Assembly: GCA_934140005.1 (NCBI GenBank)
Contig: CAKPBB010000001.1
Coordinates: 159,147-223,146 of the forward strand
DNA: 64,000 nt
From: an uncultured Clostridia bacterium
GTDB lineage: Bacteria; Bacillota; Clostridia; TANB77; CAG-508
Reading direction: 5' to 3'
This document shows positions 57,609 through 62,639 of this stretch, piece by piece (position 1 is the stretch's first letter; every line of letters starts with the position of its first letter). The notes beneath the pieces are model-generated. The model was not told where the DNA came from, did no database searches, and saw only the letters and a list, made by a program, of their open reading frames with translations. The position numbers and the translations under genes are program-made.

Positions 57609-60600
57609 ATGAAAAAGAAAATGTTAATCTCAATAGCATTAATTTTCGTTATGTTATTGAACTATGTTGTACCTTTTTCATTAGCTTATGAAGTTTCTCA
57701 ATCAGAAGTTAAACTTACATTTAATGGAAACCTATATGCAGCTATTAAGGATAACCTTATTGATGCTGGTGTAGAAATATTATATGCAAGTGATGTAGAA
57801 AGAACTTTAATATTGACACAAGCTTCAATAGATAGTATTACTTCTTTAAAATTATCTAATTATGGAATTGATGATTTAACAGGATTAGATATTTTTAAGA
57901 ATGTAACATATATAGATCTATCAGCAAATGAATTAGATGCAGAAAGTAATCTAGATGTTTTGAATTCATTTAATTTAACATATCTAGATTTATCATCTAA
58001 CCAAATTTCAGATGTTAGTATGATAACAAATATAAATGCAATAGCTACATTAAACTTACATAATCAAAGATTTAATGTAATTGAAATTGTAGAAATTGAT
58101 GCAAATGATACTTCAGATCAAAAGACTGAAGCAACTTATGAATTGCCTCAAATATTGAATTATGGAGGCACATTAAAACCAGAATGGTTACCAGAAACAA
58201 AATATCCAAATGGAGGAAACAAATCTCCATATGTAAATTGGGCAAAATTTGATGGTAGAAACATTACAGTTGTAACTGGTGAAAAAACAAAAACAACTTA
58301 TACACCATATTATGGCATGACAAAAGTATCAGTTGATGTTACAGATTCAACAAACTTATTATTCAACTCAAGAATTAATTTATTTTATATTACTGTAAGT
58401 TCAGATGATAGAGGAATTGTATTTAAAGATGCAAACCTATATAAAGCTGTAAAAGAACAATTAACAAAATCACAAACAGTAAATACAGACTTAAAGAAAT
58501 ATACAGATGGAAAAAATTTATATTCAAGAGATTATGATGAACCATTAGTATTAGTAATTAGTATTGATGAGTTAATCAATGAAATACCAAGTTTAGTTTT
58601 AAGTGAAAAGAAAATAAAAGATTTAACAGGTTTAGAAGCTTTTGTTGGAGTTGAAAGAGAATTAAATTTGGAAGGAAACTATATTGAAAGTATAGAAAAA
58701 ATTCTTGAATTAAAAGAAAAGAAAATAGAAGAACAAGAAAAATTAAAAGCAAGAGTAAAAGAACAAATTGCAAAAATCAAAGAAAATGTAGATGCAATTG
58801 AAGAAGCAGAAGGTGAAATTTCTGAACAACAAGAGGTGCTAAAAACAACTGGTGCAGAAGTTACTAAATTACAAAATGAAATTTCAAAATTAGAAGAAGA
58901 AATAAAAACTTTAACTAAAGAAACAGAAACTTTATCAGGAAAATTACCAACTTATCAAGCTGAATTAACAAATAAACAAACAGCTTATAATAATAAAAAT
59001 AATGAAGTTTTAGCATTAAAAAATGAATTAGTTACAATTAAAGAAAATATATCTAAAGCTTCAACAACAGAAGAAAAAGAAAAATTAAAAGCACAAGCAG
59101 AGGCAAAGGAAGCTCAAATATCAGCCAAAACAACAGAAGTTGATATTGCTAAAACAGAATTAGATAATGCACAAAAAACTGTAACAGATACAGAAAATAA
59201 AATTAGCAGTAACCAATCTTCAATAGAAACAAAAACAAAAGATAAATCAAGTAAAGAAACATCTTTAAATGAAAAAGAACAAGCAGTAAATGCTGCAAAT
59301 CAAATTATTGCAAATGATCAAATAATTATTCAACAAAATGAAGAAACTTTACAAGTTAGATTGGAAAAATTGTATAATACATATAAAAAATCTTATAAAT
59401 TTGCAAGAATAGCAACAGTTGAATTAAGTACTATTACAGATGAAGAATTTGAAGATTTAACTTATGAAGATGCTAAAAAAATGTTTGAAGCTCAAACATC
59501 AAAACTTGCTTCAATCGAAAAGAGTTTAGCAAAATATGAATCAAAATATATTATAGATGAGTTTGATATTCCAACAGTATCAAATGTAACAAGTAATTCA
59601 GGTACTGCAAATGAAACAACTCAAACTGTAGAAATTGAAAATCCAATTGAAACATACTTTAAAGATTTTGCTAAAAACCATGAATATTGGAATCTAACAC
59701 AAATTAAAGTATTTTTAGACAAAGTAAAATATATGTCAACAGTATTAGATATGATGACATATTGTTCAAATGAAAGAATGCATTTTGCAAAATCAGATTG
59801 TTATGCAGAAGAATATTTAAATAATGAAATAAAAGCAAATAAATTTATGGGCGAAAGTACAACAATGTTAGAAGATATTAAAGCAAAATTAACAACAATT
59901 AAATCTAAATTTGAAACATCTTATTTACATCAATGTACTGGAACAATAACAACAGTTAAATATGGAAATGATGCATATGCATTAGCTAAGAAATATAGTG
60001 AAGCAACAGATGAAGAAATAAATGCTTATGTTGCTATCCCAATGTTAAAAGTATTAAACTTAAGAAGAAACTTAATTGAATCAATTGATGGAATTGAGGA
60101 ATTAAATGAATTAAAAGAATTATACTTAGGCAATAATGAACTTGTAGATGTAACTGGAATTGACTGGTTAGCATTTACACAATTAGAAAAATTAGACTTA
60201 TCTTATAATAGCTTAAGAGAATATAAATGTTTTGAAGGTATTACAAGCTTAAAAGAACTTGATTTATCTAAAAACATAATTGAAGGTGCATTTGACTTTA
60301 CACTTTCAACATTACCAAAATTAAAATACTTAAATTTATCATATAATGCAATTAATGATATTGAAAGTATAGGAATCCAATTAGGATATATTGCTAGAGC
60401 TGCTGGATATGATGATGTAGCTTCATATCTAAAAGATGGAAACTTTGATATAAGATTTTACGGACAAATCTTAACAATGAAAGTTGCTATAGCTCAATTA
60501 GGTAAAGCTACTTATGTTGATCTACCTAACATATTTAAACAAGCGGAAGAACTAGATAGTGTAAGAACATCATTTGGTATTAATAGTATTTTTGGAAATG

Positions 60601-61523: not shown

Positions 61524-62639
61524 ATGAATAGAAAATCAATAATAGTAAGTGTGTTTTTATTAATAATAATGCTACTTTGTAGTTCTGTATATGCAGTTTT
61601 TGATGCAGATTTTCAATTAAAATATGATAAGCAAACTGTAAAAGCAGGAGATACAATAAAAGTAACATTAAAAGTATTAAATATTACAGGAACTGAAAAA
61701 GGTGTTGAAAATATTGAAGGCTATATAAATGTAGATAAAAATATTATAGAACCAATAACAGTTGATAATATTGAGAAAGATGAAAATGGAAAAGTTGTCA
61801 TAGGAGATATGAAATTAAATATTCAAGATTTAACTAATGCAACAAATACAGATTCAATCCAAGAAAATGGTATAGTATTTAATGGTAAACCTTTATCAGG
61901 AAATGATGCAAAAATCATTATGGATTTTCCAAAGCCATTAACAACTGATACAGAAACTTTAACAATGAATTTTAAAGTAAAAGAAGATGCCAAAATAGGA
62001 AAAGTAGAAAAGGCTATACAATACAATATGTTTGTAATGTATTCTGGAGAAGAAAAAACTGTATCAGCAACTGGTTCATTAGACATTACTGTTGAAGAAT
62101 CAGAACATAAATGGGTTGTAGATAAAGAAAAAAGCAAAGCTGCAACTTGTGAAGAAGATGGATATACATACTATGTATGTAGTGTATGTGGAGAAACAAA
62201 AACAGAAGTTATAAAGGCTTTGGGTCATAAGTTTGGAGATTGGAAAGTTGTAAAGGAAGCAACTACAACTTCAGAAGGTCAAAAGCAAAGAACTTGTTCA
62301 GTTTGTGGAGAAGTAGAAACACAAACGATTTCAAAATTAAAAGATACAAATACCAATACGAATAATACAAATAATAACACAAATACTAATAATGTAACAA
62401 ATAATGTCGTAAATAATACTAATACAAATACTAACAAAAATAACAATACAAATGGCAATAACACTGTAAAAAATAACACTACGAACAATGCAGGAAATTC
62501 AGCAAACACAACAGATAAAACAACATCAAATAAAGTATTGCCAGCAGCTGGTGCAGTTAATTTAATAATACCAGCAATAGTATTAATAGCAATAGCTTAT
62601 GCTTGCTATAACAAATATATAAAATATAAAGATATTTAA
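61524..62639 (+). CDS. Cell-surface-anchored protein with N-terminal cohesin-like domain, two CxxCG repeats, N/T-rich linker and C-terminal TM anchor (LPAAG-like motif)
   Basis: Signal peptide. KAGDTIKVTLKVLNITGTEKGVENIEGYINVDKNIIEPITV aligns with the cohesin GDTVTVPV...F.L.YD..LLEVV pattern. Repeats YYVCSVCGETKTE and RTCSVCGEVETQ. C-terminus VLPAAGAVNLIIPAIVLIAIAYACYNKYIKYKDI. Confidence 0.45.
   Translation: MNRKSIIVSVFLLIIMLLCSSVYAVFDADFQLKYDKQTVKAGDTIKVTLKVLNITGTEKGVENIEGYINVDKNIIEPITVDNIEKDENGKVVIGDMKLNIQDLTNATNTDSIQENGIVFNGKPLSGNDAKIIMDFPKPLTTDTETLTMNFKVKEDAKIGKVEKAIQYNMFVMYSGEEKTVSATGSLDITVEESEHKWVVDKEKSKAATCEEDGYTYYVCSVCGETKTEVIKALGHKFGDWKVVKEATTTSEGQKQRTCSVCGEVETQTISKLKDTNTNTNNTNNNTNTNNVTNNVVNNTNTNTNKNNNTNGNNTVKNNTTNNAGNSANTTDKTTSNKVLPAAGAVNLIIPAIVLIAIAYACYNKYIKYKDI

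What the first reader, a model, noticed from the sequence alone, without database searches (positions are those of the whole stretch)
57609..62639. Adjacent dockerin-bearing LRR protein and cohesin-like anchored protein: a putative non-cellulosomal cohesin-dockerin display pair
The 1233-aa secreted LRR/coiled-coil protein ends in an unambiguous type-I dockerin. The dockerin is two DxNxDGxxNxxD Ca-binding segments, GDVNGDGLANAID and ADINQDGNIDAID. The next gene, 213 nt downstream, encodes a signal-peptide protein whose N-terminal ~170 aa match the cohesin beta-sandwich pattern (...AGDTIKVTLKVLNITG...IEGYINVDKNIIEPITV). It also has two unusual extracellular CxxCG repeats, an N/T-rich linker of the same type as the LRR protein, and a C-terminal LPAAG + TM + basic tail. 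A dedicated cohesin-dockerin pair tethering an internalin-like LRR protein to the cell surface would be an adhesion or host-interaction module, not a cellulosome.
Basis: partly seen in the sequence, partly recalled or inferred. Interest (0 to 1): 0.65.

Follow-up and report, generated by a model that had tools for sequence, protein, structure and literature searches.

The report
Cohesin-dockerin tether for LRR surface protein
Two neighbouring genes in an uncultured human-gut Firmicute encode a long leucine-rich-repeat surface protein ending in a dockerin and a cell-anchored protein starting with a very divergent cohesin, most likely a plug-and-socket pair that hangs the LRR protein on the cell surface; the principle is already known from cellulosome anchoring, so this is a solid but moderately novel find.

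Summary
The 1233-aa protein has a signal peptide, two LRR blocks, a long coiled-coil/helical middle, an N/T-rich linker, a conserved beta-module and a type I dockerin (Pfam E 8.9e-11; predicted fold 0.8 A rmsd from C. thermocellum dockerins). The N-terminal domain of the 371-aa protein gets no Pfam cohesin hit itself. However, 14 of 30 family members do, the family profile hits almost only cohesins in the PDB (best E 1.7e-8), and a confident AlphaFold2 model matches cohesin structures first. Its 'CxxCG repeats' match the Cys/His repeat in a gut IgA protease's C-terminal region. LPAAG aligns with LPxTG in orthologues, so it is probably a sortase signal. The two genes are adjacent in all nine lineages examined, down to 39% cohesin identity, and the dockerin is the best-conserved part of the LRR protein. 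'Dedicated' is doubtful: relatives put the same X-dockerin subtype on proteases, BspA-type LRR proteins and small cohesin-dockerin proteins. No glycoside hydrolase cargo was seen. The closest analogue is R. flavefaciens ScaE/CttA. Verdict: real, a new variant of a known kind, interest about 0.4.

The parts
57549..57576 (+). Promoter-like site upstream of the LRR-dockerin gene (TTGCAA, 16 nt with TG, TATCAT). A ribosome-binding site AGGAGGGAG lies at 57594-57602.
   Evidence: Consensus scan and coordinates. This is a consensus match only; promoter-like sites are not enriched over shuffles in this AT-rich region.
57609..61310 (+). Gene for the secreted 1233-aa LRR / coiled-coil / X-module / dockerin protein
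   Evidence: ORF; Pfam LRR_4, LRR_8 and Dockerin_1; about 50 homologous clusters, nearly all carrying PF00404.
57609..57686 (+). Signal peptide (aa 1-26, MKKKMLISIALIFVMLLNYVVPFSLA)
   Evidence: Read from the sequence. Near-identical N-termini occur across the family (MKRKMLISIAL..MLLNC..). No signal-peptide predictor was available, so this is an inference.
57687..58688 (+). N-terminal LRR region (aa 27-360)
   Evidence: Pfam LRR_6, LRR_EndoS and LRR_NXF1-5 stretches at aa 49-162; PDB LRR matches at aa 72-154.
58689..60008 (+). Coiled-coil / helical middle (aa 361-800). It is the most variable part and differs in length between strains.
   Evidence: Sub-threshold NCBIfam SMC match at aa 365-592 and a weak crescentin-rod match. 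Only 14-52% identity between lineages. Variants of 1233, 1229 and 1110 aa occur.
60009..60398 (+). C-terminal LRR block (aa 801-930)
   Evidence: Pfam LRR_4 at 811-851 and LRR_8 at 834-889; internalin A/B and LGR4 LRR matches in the PDB.
60729..60893 (+). N/T-rich low-complexity linker (aa 1041-1095)
   Evidence: Read from the sequence.
60894..61103 (+). Conserved beta-rich 'X-module' (aa 1096-1165) predicted to pack rigidly against the dockerin
   Evidence: AlphaFold2 model of aa 1096-1233: mean pLDDT 95.4, pTM 0.88. No significant PDB fold match for this half. Conserved in all paired loci.
61104..61307 (+). Type I-like dockerin (aa 1166-1233) with Ca loops at nt 61122-61157 and 61224-61259
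   Evidence: Pfam E 8.9e-11. Foldseek to 1ohz_B and 2ccl_B: TM 0.90-0.91, rmsd 0.8 A. It is the most conserved region of the protein, 63-97% identity.
61360..61399 (+). 17-bp hairpin 50 nt after the LRR-dockerin stop codon, with no U-tract
   Evidence: RNA fold of the intergenic region, z-score -6.4. A hairpin at the same place, with different sequence, is present in all 8 orthologous loci checked.
61462..61490 (+). Conserved promoter-like block in front of the cohesin gene (TTGCAT, 17 nt with TG, TATTCT). A ribosome-binding site AAGGAGAA lies at 61512-61519.
   Evidence: Near-identical block in all orthologous intergenic regions; coordinates. Promoter function is inferred.
61524..62639 (+). 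Gene for the 371-aa cell-surface anchor protein (SP, cohesin, Cys/His stalk, linker, sorting signal)
   Evidence: ORF; homologues; full-length alignment.
61596..62099 (+). Divergent cohesin domain (aa 25-192)
   Evidence: 14 of 30 family members hit PF00963, best E 2.8e-13. Profile against the PDB hits cohesins, best E 1.7e-8. AlphaFold2 pLDDT is about 90-97. Top Foldseek hits are cohesins, TM 0.57-0.69.
62100..62339 (+). Two Cys/His beta-hairpin repeats (aa 193-272), a probable metal-binding stalk
   Evidence: pLDDT about 94-95. Repeat-to-repeat match to PDB 9qa6_A IgA protease, residues 916-974 and 1091-1130. PMC12415215 describes predicted Cys/His zinc-binding stalk domains in T. ramosa IgA protease. 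The correspondence is inferred.
62340..62528 (+). N/T-rich disordered linker (aa 273-335), a presumed wall-spanning spacer
   Evidence: pLDDT below 50; sequence.
62529..62636 (+). C-terminal sorting signal: LPAAG (nt 62538-62552), hydrophobic helix, then K-rich tail
   Evidence: Sequence. Orthologues have LPATG/LPNTG/LPKTG/LPQTG at the aligned position. 2 of 30 relatives hit PF00746.
62656..62685 (+). Intrinsic-terminator-like hairpin plus T-run after the cohesin gene
   Evidence: Terminator scan.

Best explanation
This is a two-gene cohesin-dockerin surface-display unit. Steps 1 to 3 and 5 are inferred; only the domain identities and the gene arrangement are shown.

1. The 371-aa protein is exported. 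Its C-terminal LPAAG / hydrophobic / basic signal fixes it to the cell envelope, probably by sortase-mediated covalent linkage to peptidoglycan. At the least it is held by its C-terminal membrane helix.

2. Its N/T-rich linker and a short Cys/His stalk lift an N-terminal cohesin domain above the wall.

3. The 1233-aa protein is exported separately. Its C-terminal dockerin, stiffened by a tightly packed X-module, binds that cohesin non-covalently in a Ca2+-dependent way.

4. The cell then carries a long LRR / coiled-coil / LRR protein whose LRR domains are free to bind a still unknown ligand (host, mucus, food particle or another microbe).

5. The two genes look like neighbouring but separately transcribed units.

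6. In the wider clade the same X-dockerin subtype also carries proteases and other LRR proteins. The cohesin is therefore best seen as a general socket, with the adjacent LRR protein as its conserved, syntenic client.
For: Domain identities:
- Dockerin: Pfam E 8.9e-11; predicted fold superposes on type I dockerins at 0.8 A.
- Cohesin: transitive Pfam evidence in 14 of 30 relatives; family profile against the PDB hits almost only cohesins, best E 1.7e-8; confident AlphaFold2 model whose top Foldseek hits are cohesins, including OlpC and the C. perfringens GH84C/GH33 cohesins.

Anchor: the tripartite C-terminal signal is present, and LPxTG variants occupy the aligned position in orthologues. S. 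aureus has two surface proteins with an LPxAG motif (PMC3436756).

Functional link: LRR-dockerin followed by cohesin is adjacent in all nine lineages examined, with cohesin identity from 94% down to 39%. The dockerin is the most conserved region of the LRR protein at 63-97%, against 14-59% for the coiled-coil, helical and LRR regions in the distant lineages. The most conserved cohesin columns fall in the strands at 61-70, 117-139 and 159-174.

X-module plus dockerin is predicted as one rigid unit (pTM 0.88).

Precedent: ScaE (single cohesin plus LPXTG) binds the C-terminal dockerin of the adhesin CttA, encoded in the same gene cluster (PMC2930009). Limousia cSca5 is an N-terminal cohesin with an LPxTG anchor (PMC12997984).
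Against: - No direct or modelled evidence of binding.
- The window's own cohesin domain is below detection for Pfam.
- LPAAG lacks the canonical Thr, and neither Pfam nor NCBIfam anchor models hit this sequence.
- No sortase gene lies in the 64-kb window.
- The genes have their own promoter-like and hairpin elements, so co-expression is not shown.
- The same dockerin subtype occurs on other cargo in relatives, so exclusivity is unlikely.
- The rest of the genome, and any other cohesins in it, could not be examined.
- The LRR ligand is unknown.
Confidence: 0.7

Rival explanations
1. The pair is one visible corner of a larger enzyme-bearing cohesin-dockerin system (cellulosome-, amylosome- or mucinolysome-like). 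In that case the 371-aa protein is a ScaE/cSca5-type anchor for scaffoldins and many enzymes, and the LRR protein is just one of many clients.
For: In known systems the sortase-anchored single-cohesin protein anchors scaffoldins as well as adhesins (PMC2930009; PMC12997984). LRR-dockerin proteins are common inside the R. flavefaciens cellulosome repertoire, with 28 LRR modules. Relatives carry the same dockerin subtype on proteases and on small cohesin-dockerin adaptor-like proteins.
Against: No second dockerin motif in the 64-kb window, and no cohesin hit in any window ORF scanned. Among about 50 single-copy C-terminal hits to the subtype profile, cargo was LRR, protease or cohesin, never a glycoside hydrolase or CBM. 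The locus sits among housekeeping genes (spoIIE, acpS, tatD, lemA, an M48 peptidase gene), not in a sca-like cluster.
Confidence: 0.17
2. The two genes are neighbours but not partners. The dockerin binds a different cohesin elsewhere in the genome, the adjacent cohesin binds other dockerins, and the adjacency reflects only shared history or regulation.
For: Cohesin-dockerin specificity cannot be read from adjacency. The genes have separate promoter-like and hairpin elements. Other cargo types carry the same dockerin subtype in relatives.
Against: The adjacency survives in nine lineages while flanking details change. For example, thioredoxin genes are inserted downstream in L009, and L019 has a different neighbourhood yet keeps the pair. 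Strong dockerin conservation fits a conserved partner.
Confidence: 0.1
3. The N-terminal domain of the 371-aa protein is a cohesin-fold beta-sandwich that no longer binds dockerins (for example a structural or ligand-binding Ig-like module). The dockerin-like module would then serve only as a Ca-binding stabiliser.
For: The domain fails the Pfam cohesin model. It has a roughly 30-residue larger core than classical cohesins. Foldseek TM-scores to cohesins are moderate at 0.57-0.69, and generic Ig-like pilin and integrin domains also score.
Against: Cohesins rank first in both sequence-profile and fold searches. Close relatives pass Pfam's cohesin model. A conserved partnership with a canonical dockerin gene is hard to explain otherwise.
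Confidence: 0.07

Closest known systems
Ruminococcus flavefaciens ScaE (sortase-anchored single cohesin) with CttA (adhesin bearing a C-terminal X-dockerin), both encoded in the sca gene cluster
   Same: The anchor protein is one cohesin plus an LPXTG-type sorting signal. A non-enzymatic binding protein is tethered through a C-terminal X-module plus dockerin. The genes lie in one cluster (PMC2930009). The mechanostable XDoc:CohE adhesion is described in PMC4266597 and PMC7456326.
   Different: Cargo here is an LRR / coiled-coil protein, not a cellulose-binding protein. The dockerin superposes on type I dockerins rather than the ScaB/CttA group. The family profile matches ScaE's cohesin (4iu2/4iu3) only at E about 0.03. 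The X-module has no PDB fold match. The anchor carries a Cys/His stalk. No scaffoldins or enzymes are seen nearby.
Limousia 'mucinolysome' anchor cSca5 (N-terminal cohesin plus C-terminal LPxTG)
   Same: Gut Clostridia, and a single N-terminal cohesin on a sortase-anchored protein that tethers dockerin-bearing partners (PMC12997984).
   Different: cSca5 is proposed to anchor multi-cohesin scaffoldins and mucin-degrading GHs. Here the conserved adjacent client is an LRR protein and no GH cargo was seen. The organism differs: Limousia is Acutalibacteraceae, whereas this window is about 26% GC.
Clostridium thermocellum OlpA/OlpC and Clostridium perfringens GH84C/GH33 cohesins (solved structures 3ul4, 4dh2, 2w1n, 2vo8, 2jh2)
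   Same: These are among the best structural matches to the predicted cohesin domain. The C. perfringens cases sit on glycoside hydrolases, not cellulosome scaffoldins. From my own knowledge, not tested here, OlpA and OlpC are single-cohesin surface proteins that display individual dockerin proteins directly.
   Different: From my own knowledge, OlpA and OlpC are SLH-anchored, not sortase-anchored. The C. perfringens cohesins sit on enzymes rather than on a dedicated anchor. Sequence identity to the window's domain is only 10-15%.
SIGN-LRR-Doc proteins of R. flavefaciens FD-1
   Same: Secreted LRR proteins ending in a dockerin. 28 LRR modules were counted among dockerin-bearing proteins (PMC2930009).
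   Different: Those belong to a roughly 220-dockerin cellulosome repertoire with other dockerin groups. The family here has a conserved coiled-coil stalk, a specific X-module and a syntenic cohesin partner.
Cys/His metal-binding stalk domains of the Thomasclavelia ramosa IgA protease
   Same: The CxxC repeats of the 371-aa protein align repeat-to-repeat with residues 916-974 and 1091-1130 of PDB 9qa6_A 'IgA protease'. The T. ramosa paper describes extended beta-sheet domains held by predicted Cys/His zinc sites that project the enzyme outward (PMC12415215).
   Different: There are only two repeats here, and the second lacks the first Cys (ATTTSEG instead of ATCxxxG). Metal binding was not tested. 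That 9qa6 residues 916-974 and 1091-1130 correspond to CTD2 and CTD4 is my inference.

Membership tests
Dockerin type I (PF00404) | Match to the family model above the curated threshold | tested here: met
   E 8.9e-11, 42.3 bits against a cut-off of 22.9, aa 1170-1221.
Dockerin type I (PF00404) | Two tandem segments, each a 12-residue Ca-binding loop (D-x-N/D-x-D-G-x-x-x-x-x-D) followed by a helix | tested here: met
   DVNGDGLANAID and DINQDGNIDAID, each followed by DSxL..-type helices. These are the only such pair in the window. Helices are at model residues 86-96 and 120-130.
Dockerin type I (PF00404) | Dockerin fold | tested here: met
   The predicted model (pLDDT 95) superposes on 1ohz_B and 2ccl_B with TM 0.90-0.91, rmsd 0.8 A and 34-35% identity. 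This is a prediction, not an experimental structure.
Dockerin type I (PF00404) | Ca2+-dependent binding to a cohesin | not testable with these tools
Biochemistry is needed.
Cohesin (PF00963) | Match of this sequence to the family model | tested here: not met
   No PF00963 hit at E<=1 for the 371-aa protein and none at E<=0.01.
Cohesin (PF00963) | Full-length homology to proteins that do match the family model | tested here: met
   Homologues at 44-66% identity over 98-100% of the query carry PF00963. 14 of 30 aligned members hit it, best E 2.8e-13.
Cohesin (PF00963) | Profile similarity to experimentally solved cohesins | tested here: met
   All 26 PDB hits with E<0.01 are cohesins, best E 1.7e-8. 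The first non-cohesin (Cas12i) appears at E 0.018.
Cohesin (PF00963) | Cohesin beta-sandwich fold | tested here: met
Cohesin (PF00963) | Binds a dockerin | not testable with these tools
   Inferred only from adjacency conserved in nine lineages.
Sortase-anchored (LPXTG) surface protein | C-terminal tripartite signal: motif, hydrophobic segment, positively charged tail | tested here: met
   LPAAG-AVNLIIPAIVLIAIAYACY-NKYIKYKDI. The model predicts a helix at 344-369.
Sortase-anchored (LPXTG) surface protein | Canonical LPXTG pentapeptide | tested here: inconclusive
   The window has LPAAG, with Ala in place of Thr. Orthologues have LPATG, LPNTG, LPKTG, LPQTG or IPATG at the same column. S. aureus has two LPxAG proteins listed with the LPxTG set (PMC3436756).
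Sortase-anchored (LPXTG) surface protein | Match to curated anchor models (PF00746 / NCBIfam) | tested here: not met
   No hit for this sequence. 2 of 30 relatives hit PF00746, best E 2.3e-4.
Sortase-anchored (LPXTG) surface protein | A sortase encoded in the genome | tested here: inconclusive
   None was found among the window ORFs scanned. The rest of the genome is not available.
ScaE/CttA-type anchoring pair | Single-cohesin anchor with a sorting signal, plus cargo with a C-terminal X-module and dockerin, with genes clustered | tested here: met
   Architecture and adjacency. The reference description is in PMC2930009.
ScaE/CttA-type anchoring pair | Sequence or structural kinship with ScaE cohesin and ScaB/CttA-group dockerins | tested here: not met
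   ScaE structures 4iu2/4iu3 match the family profile only at E about 0.03. The dockerin is closest to type I dockerins of C. thermocellum and C. acetobutylicum. The resemblance is functional analogy, not family membership.
Internalin family (NCBIfam NF033189 / NF033190) | Score above the family cut-off | tested here: not met
   57.9 bits against a cut-off of 1275, and 33 bits against 1600. Only the generic LRR part is shared.

The most novel reading that the evidence does not exclude
A widespread clade of uncultured, low-GC human-gut Firmicutes uses cohesin-dockerin pairing purely as an enzyme-free surface-display system. A sortase-anchored, stalked cohesin 'socket' would carry exchangeable clients (a conserved LRR / coiled-coil adhesin, plus proteases and BspA-type LRR proteins in relatives) through a dockerin stiffened by an X-module fold not yet seen in solved structures. 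It could be a mechanostable host- or mucus-adhesion bond analogous to the ruminococcal XDoc:CohE bond, but aimed at host or microbial ligands rather than fibre.
Probability: 0.3. Interest if true: 0.6.

Novelty: new variant of a known kind. Interest (0 to 1): 0.4.

Why it matters
If the pair binds as inferred, it is a minimal, genetically compact example of cohesin-dockerin chemistry used for adhesin display rather than enzyme assembly. Its host recurs in many human gut metagenomes, including Hadza samples. It would give a testable route to how uncultured gut Firmicutes attach LRR proteins to their surface and what those proteins bind. It also shows that cohesins can be invisible to Pfam yet recoverable by family profiles and structure prediction, echoing a 2026 preprint on human ruminococci, so cohesin-dockerin systems in the gut are probably under-counted. 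The compact X-dockerin/cohesin pair could also serve as an orthogonal protein-assembly tag. The principle itself is established, so this extends a known theme and is not a new mechanism.

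Tried and rejected
1. Modelling the complex.

3. Naming the organism. The genome-contig scan found only distant CxxC-repeat hits in Agathobacter and Anaerostipes MAGs. Cluster look-ups for eleven window proteins returned no organism names, and contig records are anonymous metagenome assemblies. The host stays an unnamed human-gut Firmicute of about 26% GC that encodes SpoIIE and MreBCD.

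4. Free-standing 84/95-aa 'dockerin-only' proteins. I considered them as possible competitors or adaptors and rejected that. They sit at the same locus and result from 100-N scaffold gaps inside the large gene.

5. Riboswitch or other RNA element. There is no Rfam match at E<=1 anywhere in 57200-62900.

6. The PDB hit of the CxxC region to the designed protein SAKe6BC (E 4.8e-8) is spurious: six repeats of about 5 bits each, summed.

7. The terminator-like site at 62539-62553 lies inside the LPAAG coding sequence and was ignored.

8. The search for related loci with the alignment A2 failed for lack of a conserved stretch.

9. Cohesin-dockerin covariation across the nine pairs was considered but not attempted, because there are too few independent lineages.

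Full report
OBSERVATION. The window is very AT-rich (about 23-31% GC). It holds two same-strand ORFs exactly as described: 57609-61310 (1233 aa) and 61524-62639 (371 aa), separated by 213 nt. For the large protein, Pfam gives LRR_4 (7e-22), LRR_8 (1.2e-17) and Dockerin_1 (8.9e-11; 42.3 bits against a cut-off of 22.9; aa 1170-1221). NCBIfam adds sub-threshold internalin-like LRR and SMC-like coiled-coil matches. A six-frame motif scan finds the two dockerin Ca-loops (nt 61122-61157 and 61224-61259) and no other strict match in 64 kb. Both CSVCGE motifs, both N/T-rich linkers and the LPAAG / hydrophobic / K-rich C-terminus are present.

REST OF THE ANCHOR PROTEIN. Residues 193-272 fold as confident beta-hairpins. 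They align repeat-to-repeat with residues 916-974 and 1091-1130 of a solved IgA protease (9qa6_A). The paper on the Thomasclavelia ramosa IgA protease describes C-terminal beta-sheet domains held together by predicted Cys/His zinc sites that form an extended stalk (PMC12415215). The CxxCG repeats are therefore most likely a short metal-stabilised stalk, a recurring module and not an oddity. That the matched residues correspond to those named domains is my inference. The module is dispensable: one orthologue (P0026, 298 aa) lacks it, and others replace it with low-complexity sequence. The C-terminal motif column reads LPAAG, LPATG, LPNTG, LPKTG, LPQTG or IPATG across orthologues, always followed by a hydrophobic segment and a YNKYMKYKDI-like tail. 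That pattern is what a sortase sorting signal looks like. Ala at the Thr position has a precedent in two S. aureus LPxAG proteins (PMC3436756). No anchor model hits this sequence and no sortase gene is in the window, so covalent wall anchoring is probable but unproven. A C-terminal membrane anchor is the fallback.

THE DOCKERIN END. The last 138 residues, modelled with 39 homologous tails, give a very confident single unit (mean pLDDT 95.4, pTM 0.88). The C-terminal half superposes on type I dockerins (1ohz_B and 2ccl_B: TM 0.90-0.91, rmsd 0.8 A, 34-35% identity). The N-terminal half (aa 1096-1165, five to six strands and one helix) has no significant PDB match. From my own knowledge, X-modules are a feature of anchoring (type II/III) interactions; this was not tested here. 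The two dockerin segments share DSxL[IL]xxxRAE[IV], an internal symmetry compatible with a dual binding mode. That is an inference.

ARE THE TWO GENES A FUNCTIONAL PAIR? This is the centre of the interpretation and it rests on comparative evidence only. I recovered the locus in nine lineages. Cohesin-protein identity to the window is 94% (L001-4), 76% (L018), 55% (L007/8), 50% (L019), 47% (L009/10) and 39% (L020), plus L021 and L023. In every case a signal-peptide LRR protein of 1110-1626 aa ending in the same X-module plus dockerin lies 120-289 nt upstream of the cohesin gene. The usual neighbourhood is spoIIE, a WG-repeat gene, an unknown gene, acpS, tatD, then the pair, then lemA, an M48 peptidase gene and a G5/3D gene. 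L019 has different downstream genes but keeps the pair. In L021 and L023 the large gene was not called because of a 100-N scaffold gap in its repetitive linker. That gap explains the 84/95-aa 'dockerin-only' proteins found in databases. Within the LRR protein the dockerin is the most conserved region (63-97% identity). In the three most distant lineages the LRR blocks are 33-45% identical, and the coiled coil is 14-52% across all lineages. The coiled coil also varies in length between near-identical strains, giving 1233, 1229 and 1110 aa. In the cohesin domain the strongest conservation sits in IEGYIN (strand 61-70), FNGxPxSGNDxK (117-130) and AxxY (164-167). Direct modelling of the complex was not possible.

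TRANSCRIPTION. A 17-bp hairpin without a U-tract follows the LRR gene (61360-61399; regional z-score -6.4). A hairpin of different sequence sits at the same place in all eight orthologous loci checked. It is followed by a near-identical promoter-like block, TTGCAT-N17(TG)-TATTCT/TATCCT, at 61462-61490 in the window. A terminator-like hairpin plus T-run follows the cohesin gene (62656-62685). The genes thus look like adjacent, separately initiated units, possibly with read-through. No Rfam element is present.

IS THE PAIR 'DEDICATED' AND NON-CELLULOSOMAL? An exhaustive HMMER search with a subtype-specific dockerin profile (A5) found 12,268 dockerin-like proteins overall. The single-copy, full-length C-terminal matches (95-126 bits) are mostly 1.1-1.9 kb-aa LRR proteins with the family's characteristic signal peptide. 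The same X-dockerin subtype also ends other proteins: BspA-type LRR plus Big_3 proteins (P0361, P0316), a papain-like protease with lectin, LRR and Big_2 domains (P0366), a subtilase (P0320), and roughly 300-aa signal-peptide / cohesin / X / dockerin proteins (P0322; P0360 and P0363 by sequence similarity). In one short contig such a small protein is followed 21 nt later by a gene starting with a dockerin plus Big_3 repeats. No glycoside hydrolase or CBM cargo appeared. This supports a non-cellulosomal display system but argues against strict exclusivity. Whether the window's own genome has further clients or cohesins could not be tested, because only the window and +/-10 kb flanks of related contigs are accessible.

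COMPARISON WITH KNOWN SYSTEMS. The closest functional analogue is R. flavefaciens ScaE/CttA. ScaE is a single-cohesin protein covalently anchored via LPXTG. The adhesin CttA, encoded in the same sca cluster, binds it through a C-terminal dockerin (PMC2930009). That bond is famous for mechanostability (PMC4266597, PMC7456326). Limousia cSca5 (N-terminal cohesin plus LPxTG) is a recent gut example (PMC12997984). LRR-dockerin proteins are abundant in R. flavefaciens. What differs here is the cargo (LRR / coiled-coil / LRR), a type I-like dockerin fused to an X-module with no solved homologue, a Pfam-invisible cohesin on a Cys/His stalk, a housekeeping-gene neighbourhood rather than a sca-like cluster, and an unrelated low-GC host. 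By sequence the system is not a member of the ScaE or CttA families (ScaE cohesin E about 0.03). It works like them.

VERDICT. I put about 0.7 on the tethering model. This is a new variant of a known kind, of moderate interest (0.4): a neat, testable minimal system in a prevalent uncultured gut bacterium, but not a new principle.

Noticed in passing
window 23642-50539 (+): Four abutting or overlapping giant ORFs (2009, 2545, 1819 and 2407 aa). Three have SdrD_B, DUF11/CLIPPER and CarboxypepD_reg domains; the fourth has no Pfam hit at all. All have signal-peptide-like N-termini and a C-terminal TM plus basic tail, and two carry 'TPPTG' just before the TM. This is probably an operon of giant surface adhesins. 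SdrD_B giants also lie a few kb downstream of the cohesin gene in L020 and L023.
   Followed up: partly
window 62100-62339 (aa 193-272 of the 371-aa protein): The CxxC/His repeat is a widespread module with no Pfam family. It matches the C-terminal region of a solved gut IgA protease (9qa6_A) and occurs in many Firmicute surface proteins alongside SLH, Big_2, FN3 or dockerin domains. It is absent or replaced in some orthologues.
   Followed up: partly
window 60894-61103 (aa 1096-1165): The beta-rich X-module preceding the dockerin is predicted with very high confidence yet has no significant fold match in the PDB. It travels with this dockerin subtype onto unrelated cargo such as proteases, BspA LRR proteins and small cohesin proteins.
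   Followed up: partly
window 58689-60008; L001 and L013: The coiled-coil/helical middle of the LRR protein differs in length between near-identical strains (1233, 1229 and 1110 aa) and is the least conserved region. This suggests a tunable stalk length or antigenic variation.
   Followed up: no
window 61360-61399 and 61462-61490; the same positions in L001, L007, L009, L018-L021 and L023: A hairpin follows the LRR gene in every lineage, with structure kept but sequence different. A strongly conserved promoter-like block (TTGCAT-N17-TATTCT, extending into TTATTATGTAT) lies in front of the cohesin gene. Conservation beyond the hexamers might mark a regulator site.
   Followed up: partly
P0322, P0360, P0363; L025 255-2597; L026: Small (about 300 aa) signal-peptide / cohesin / X / dockerin proteins carry the same dockerin subtype in other metagenomic organisms. 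In L025 the gene 21 nt downstream begins with a dockerin followed by Big_3 repeats, hinting at multi-tier or chain-forming cohesin-dockerin assemblies.
   Followed up: partly
L021 7566-7665; L023 7571-7670: Database 'dockerin-only' proteins of 84-95 aa are artefacts of 100-N scaffold gaps in the repetitive linker of the large LRR gene. This is a caution for anyone counting free-standing dockerins in metagenome catalogues.
   Followed up: yes
window 1228-2103, 9556-11247 and 11258-11333: Two tyrosine recombinase genes are present (291 aa XerC/D-like, and 563 aa). The second is directly followed by tRNA-Lys(CTT) on the opposite strand, which might mark an integrated element.
   Followed up: no
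L011-L017 (contigs carrying the exact window protein): Several independent assemblies of this organism break within a few hundred bases of the same point, about 3.4 kb downstream of the cohesin gene just past the G5/3D gene. This suggests a repeat or rRNA operon there.
   Followed up: no
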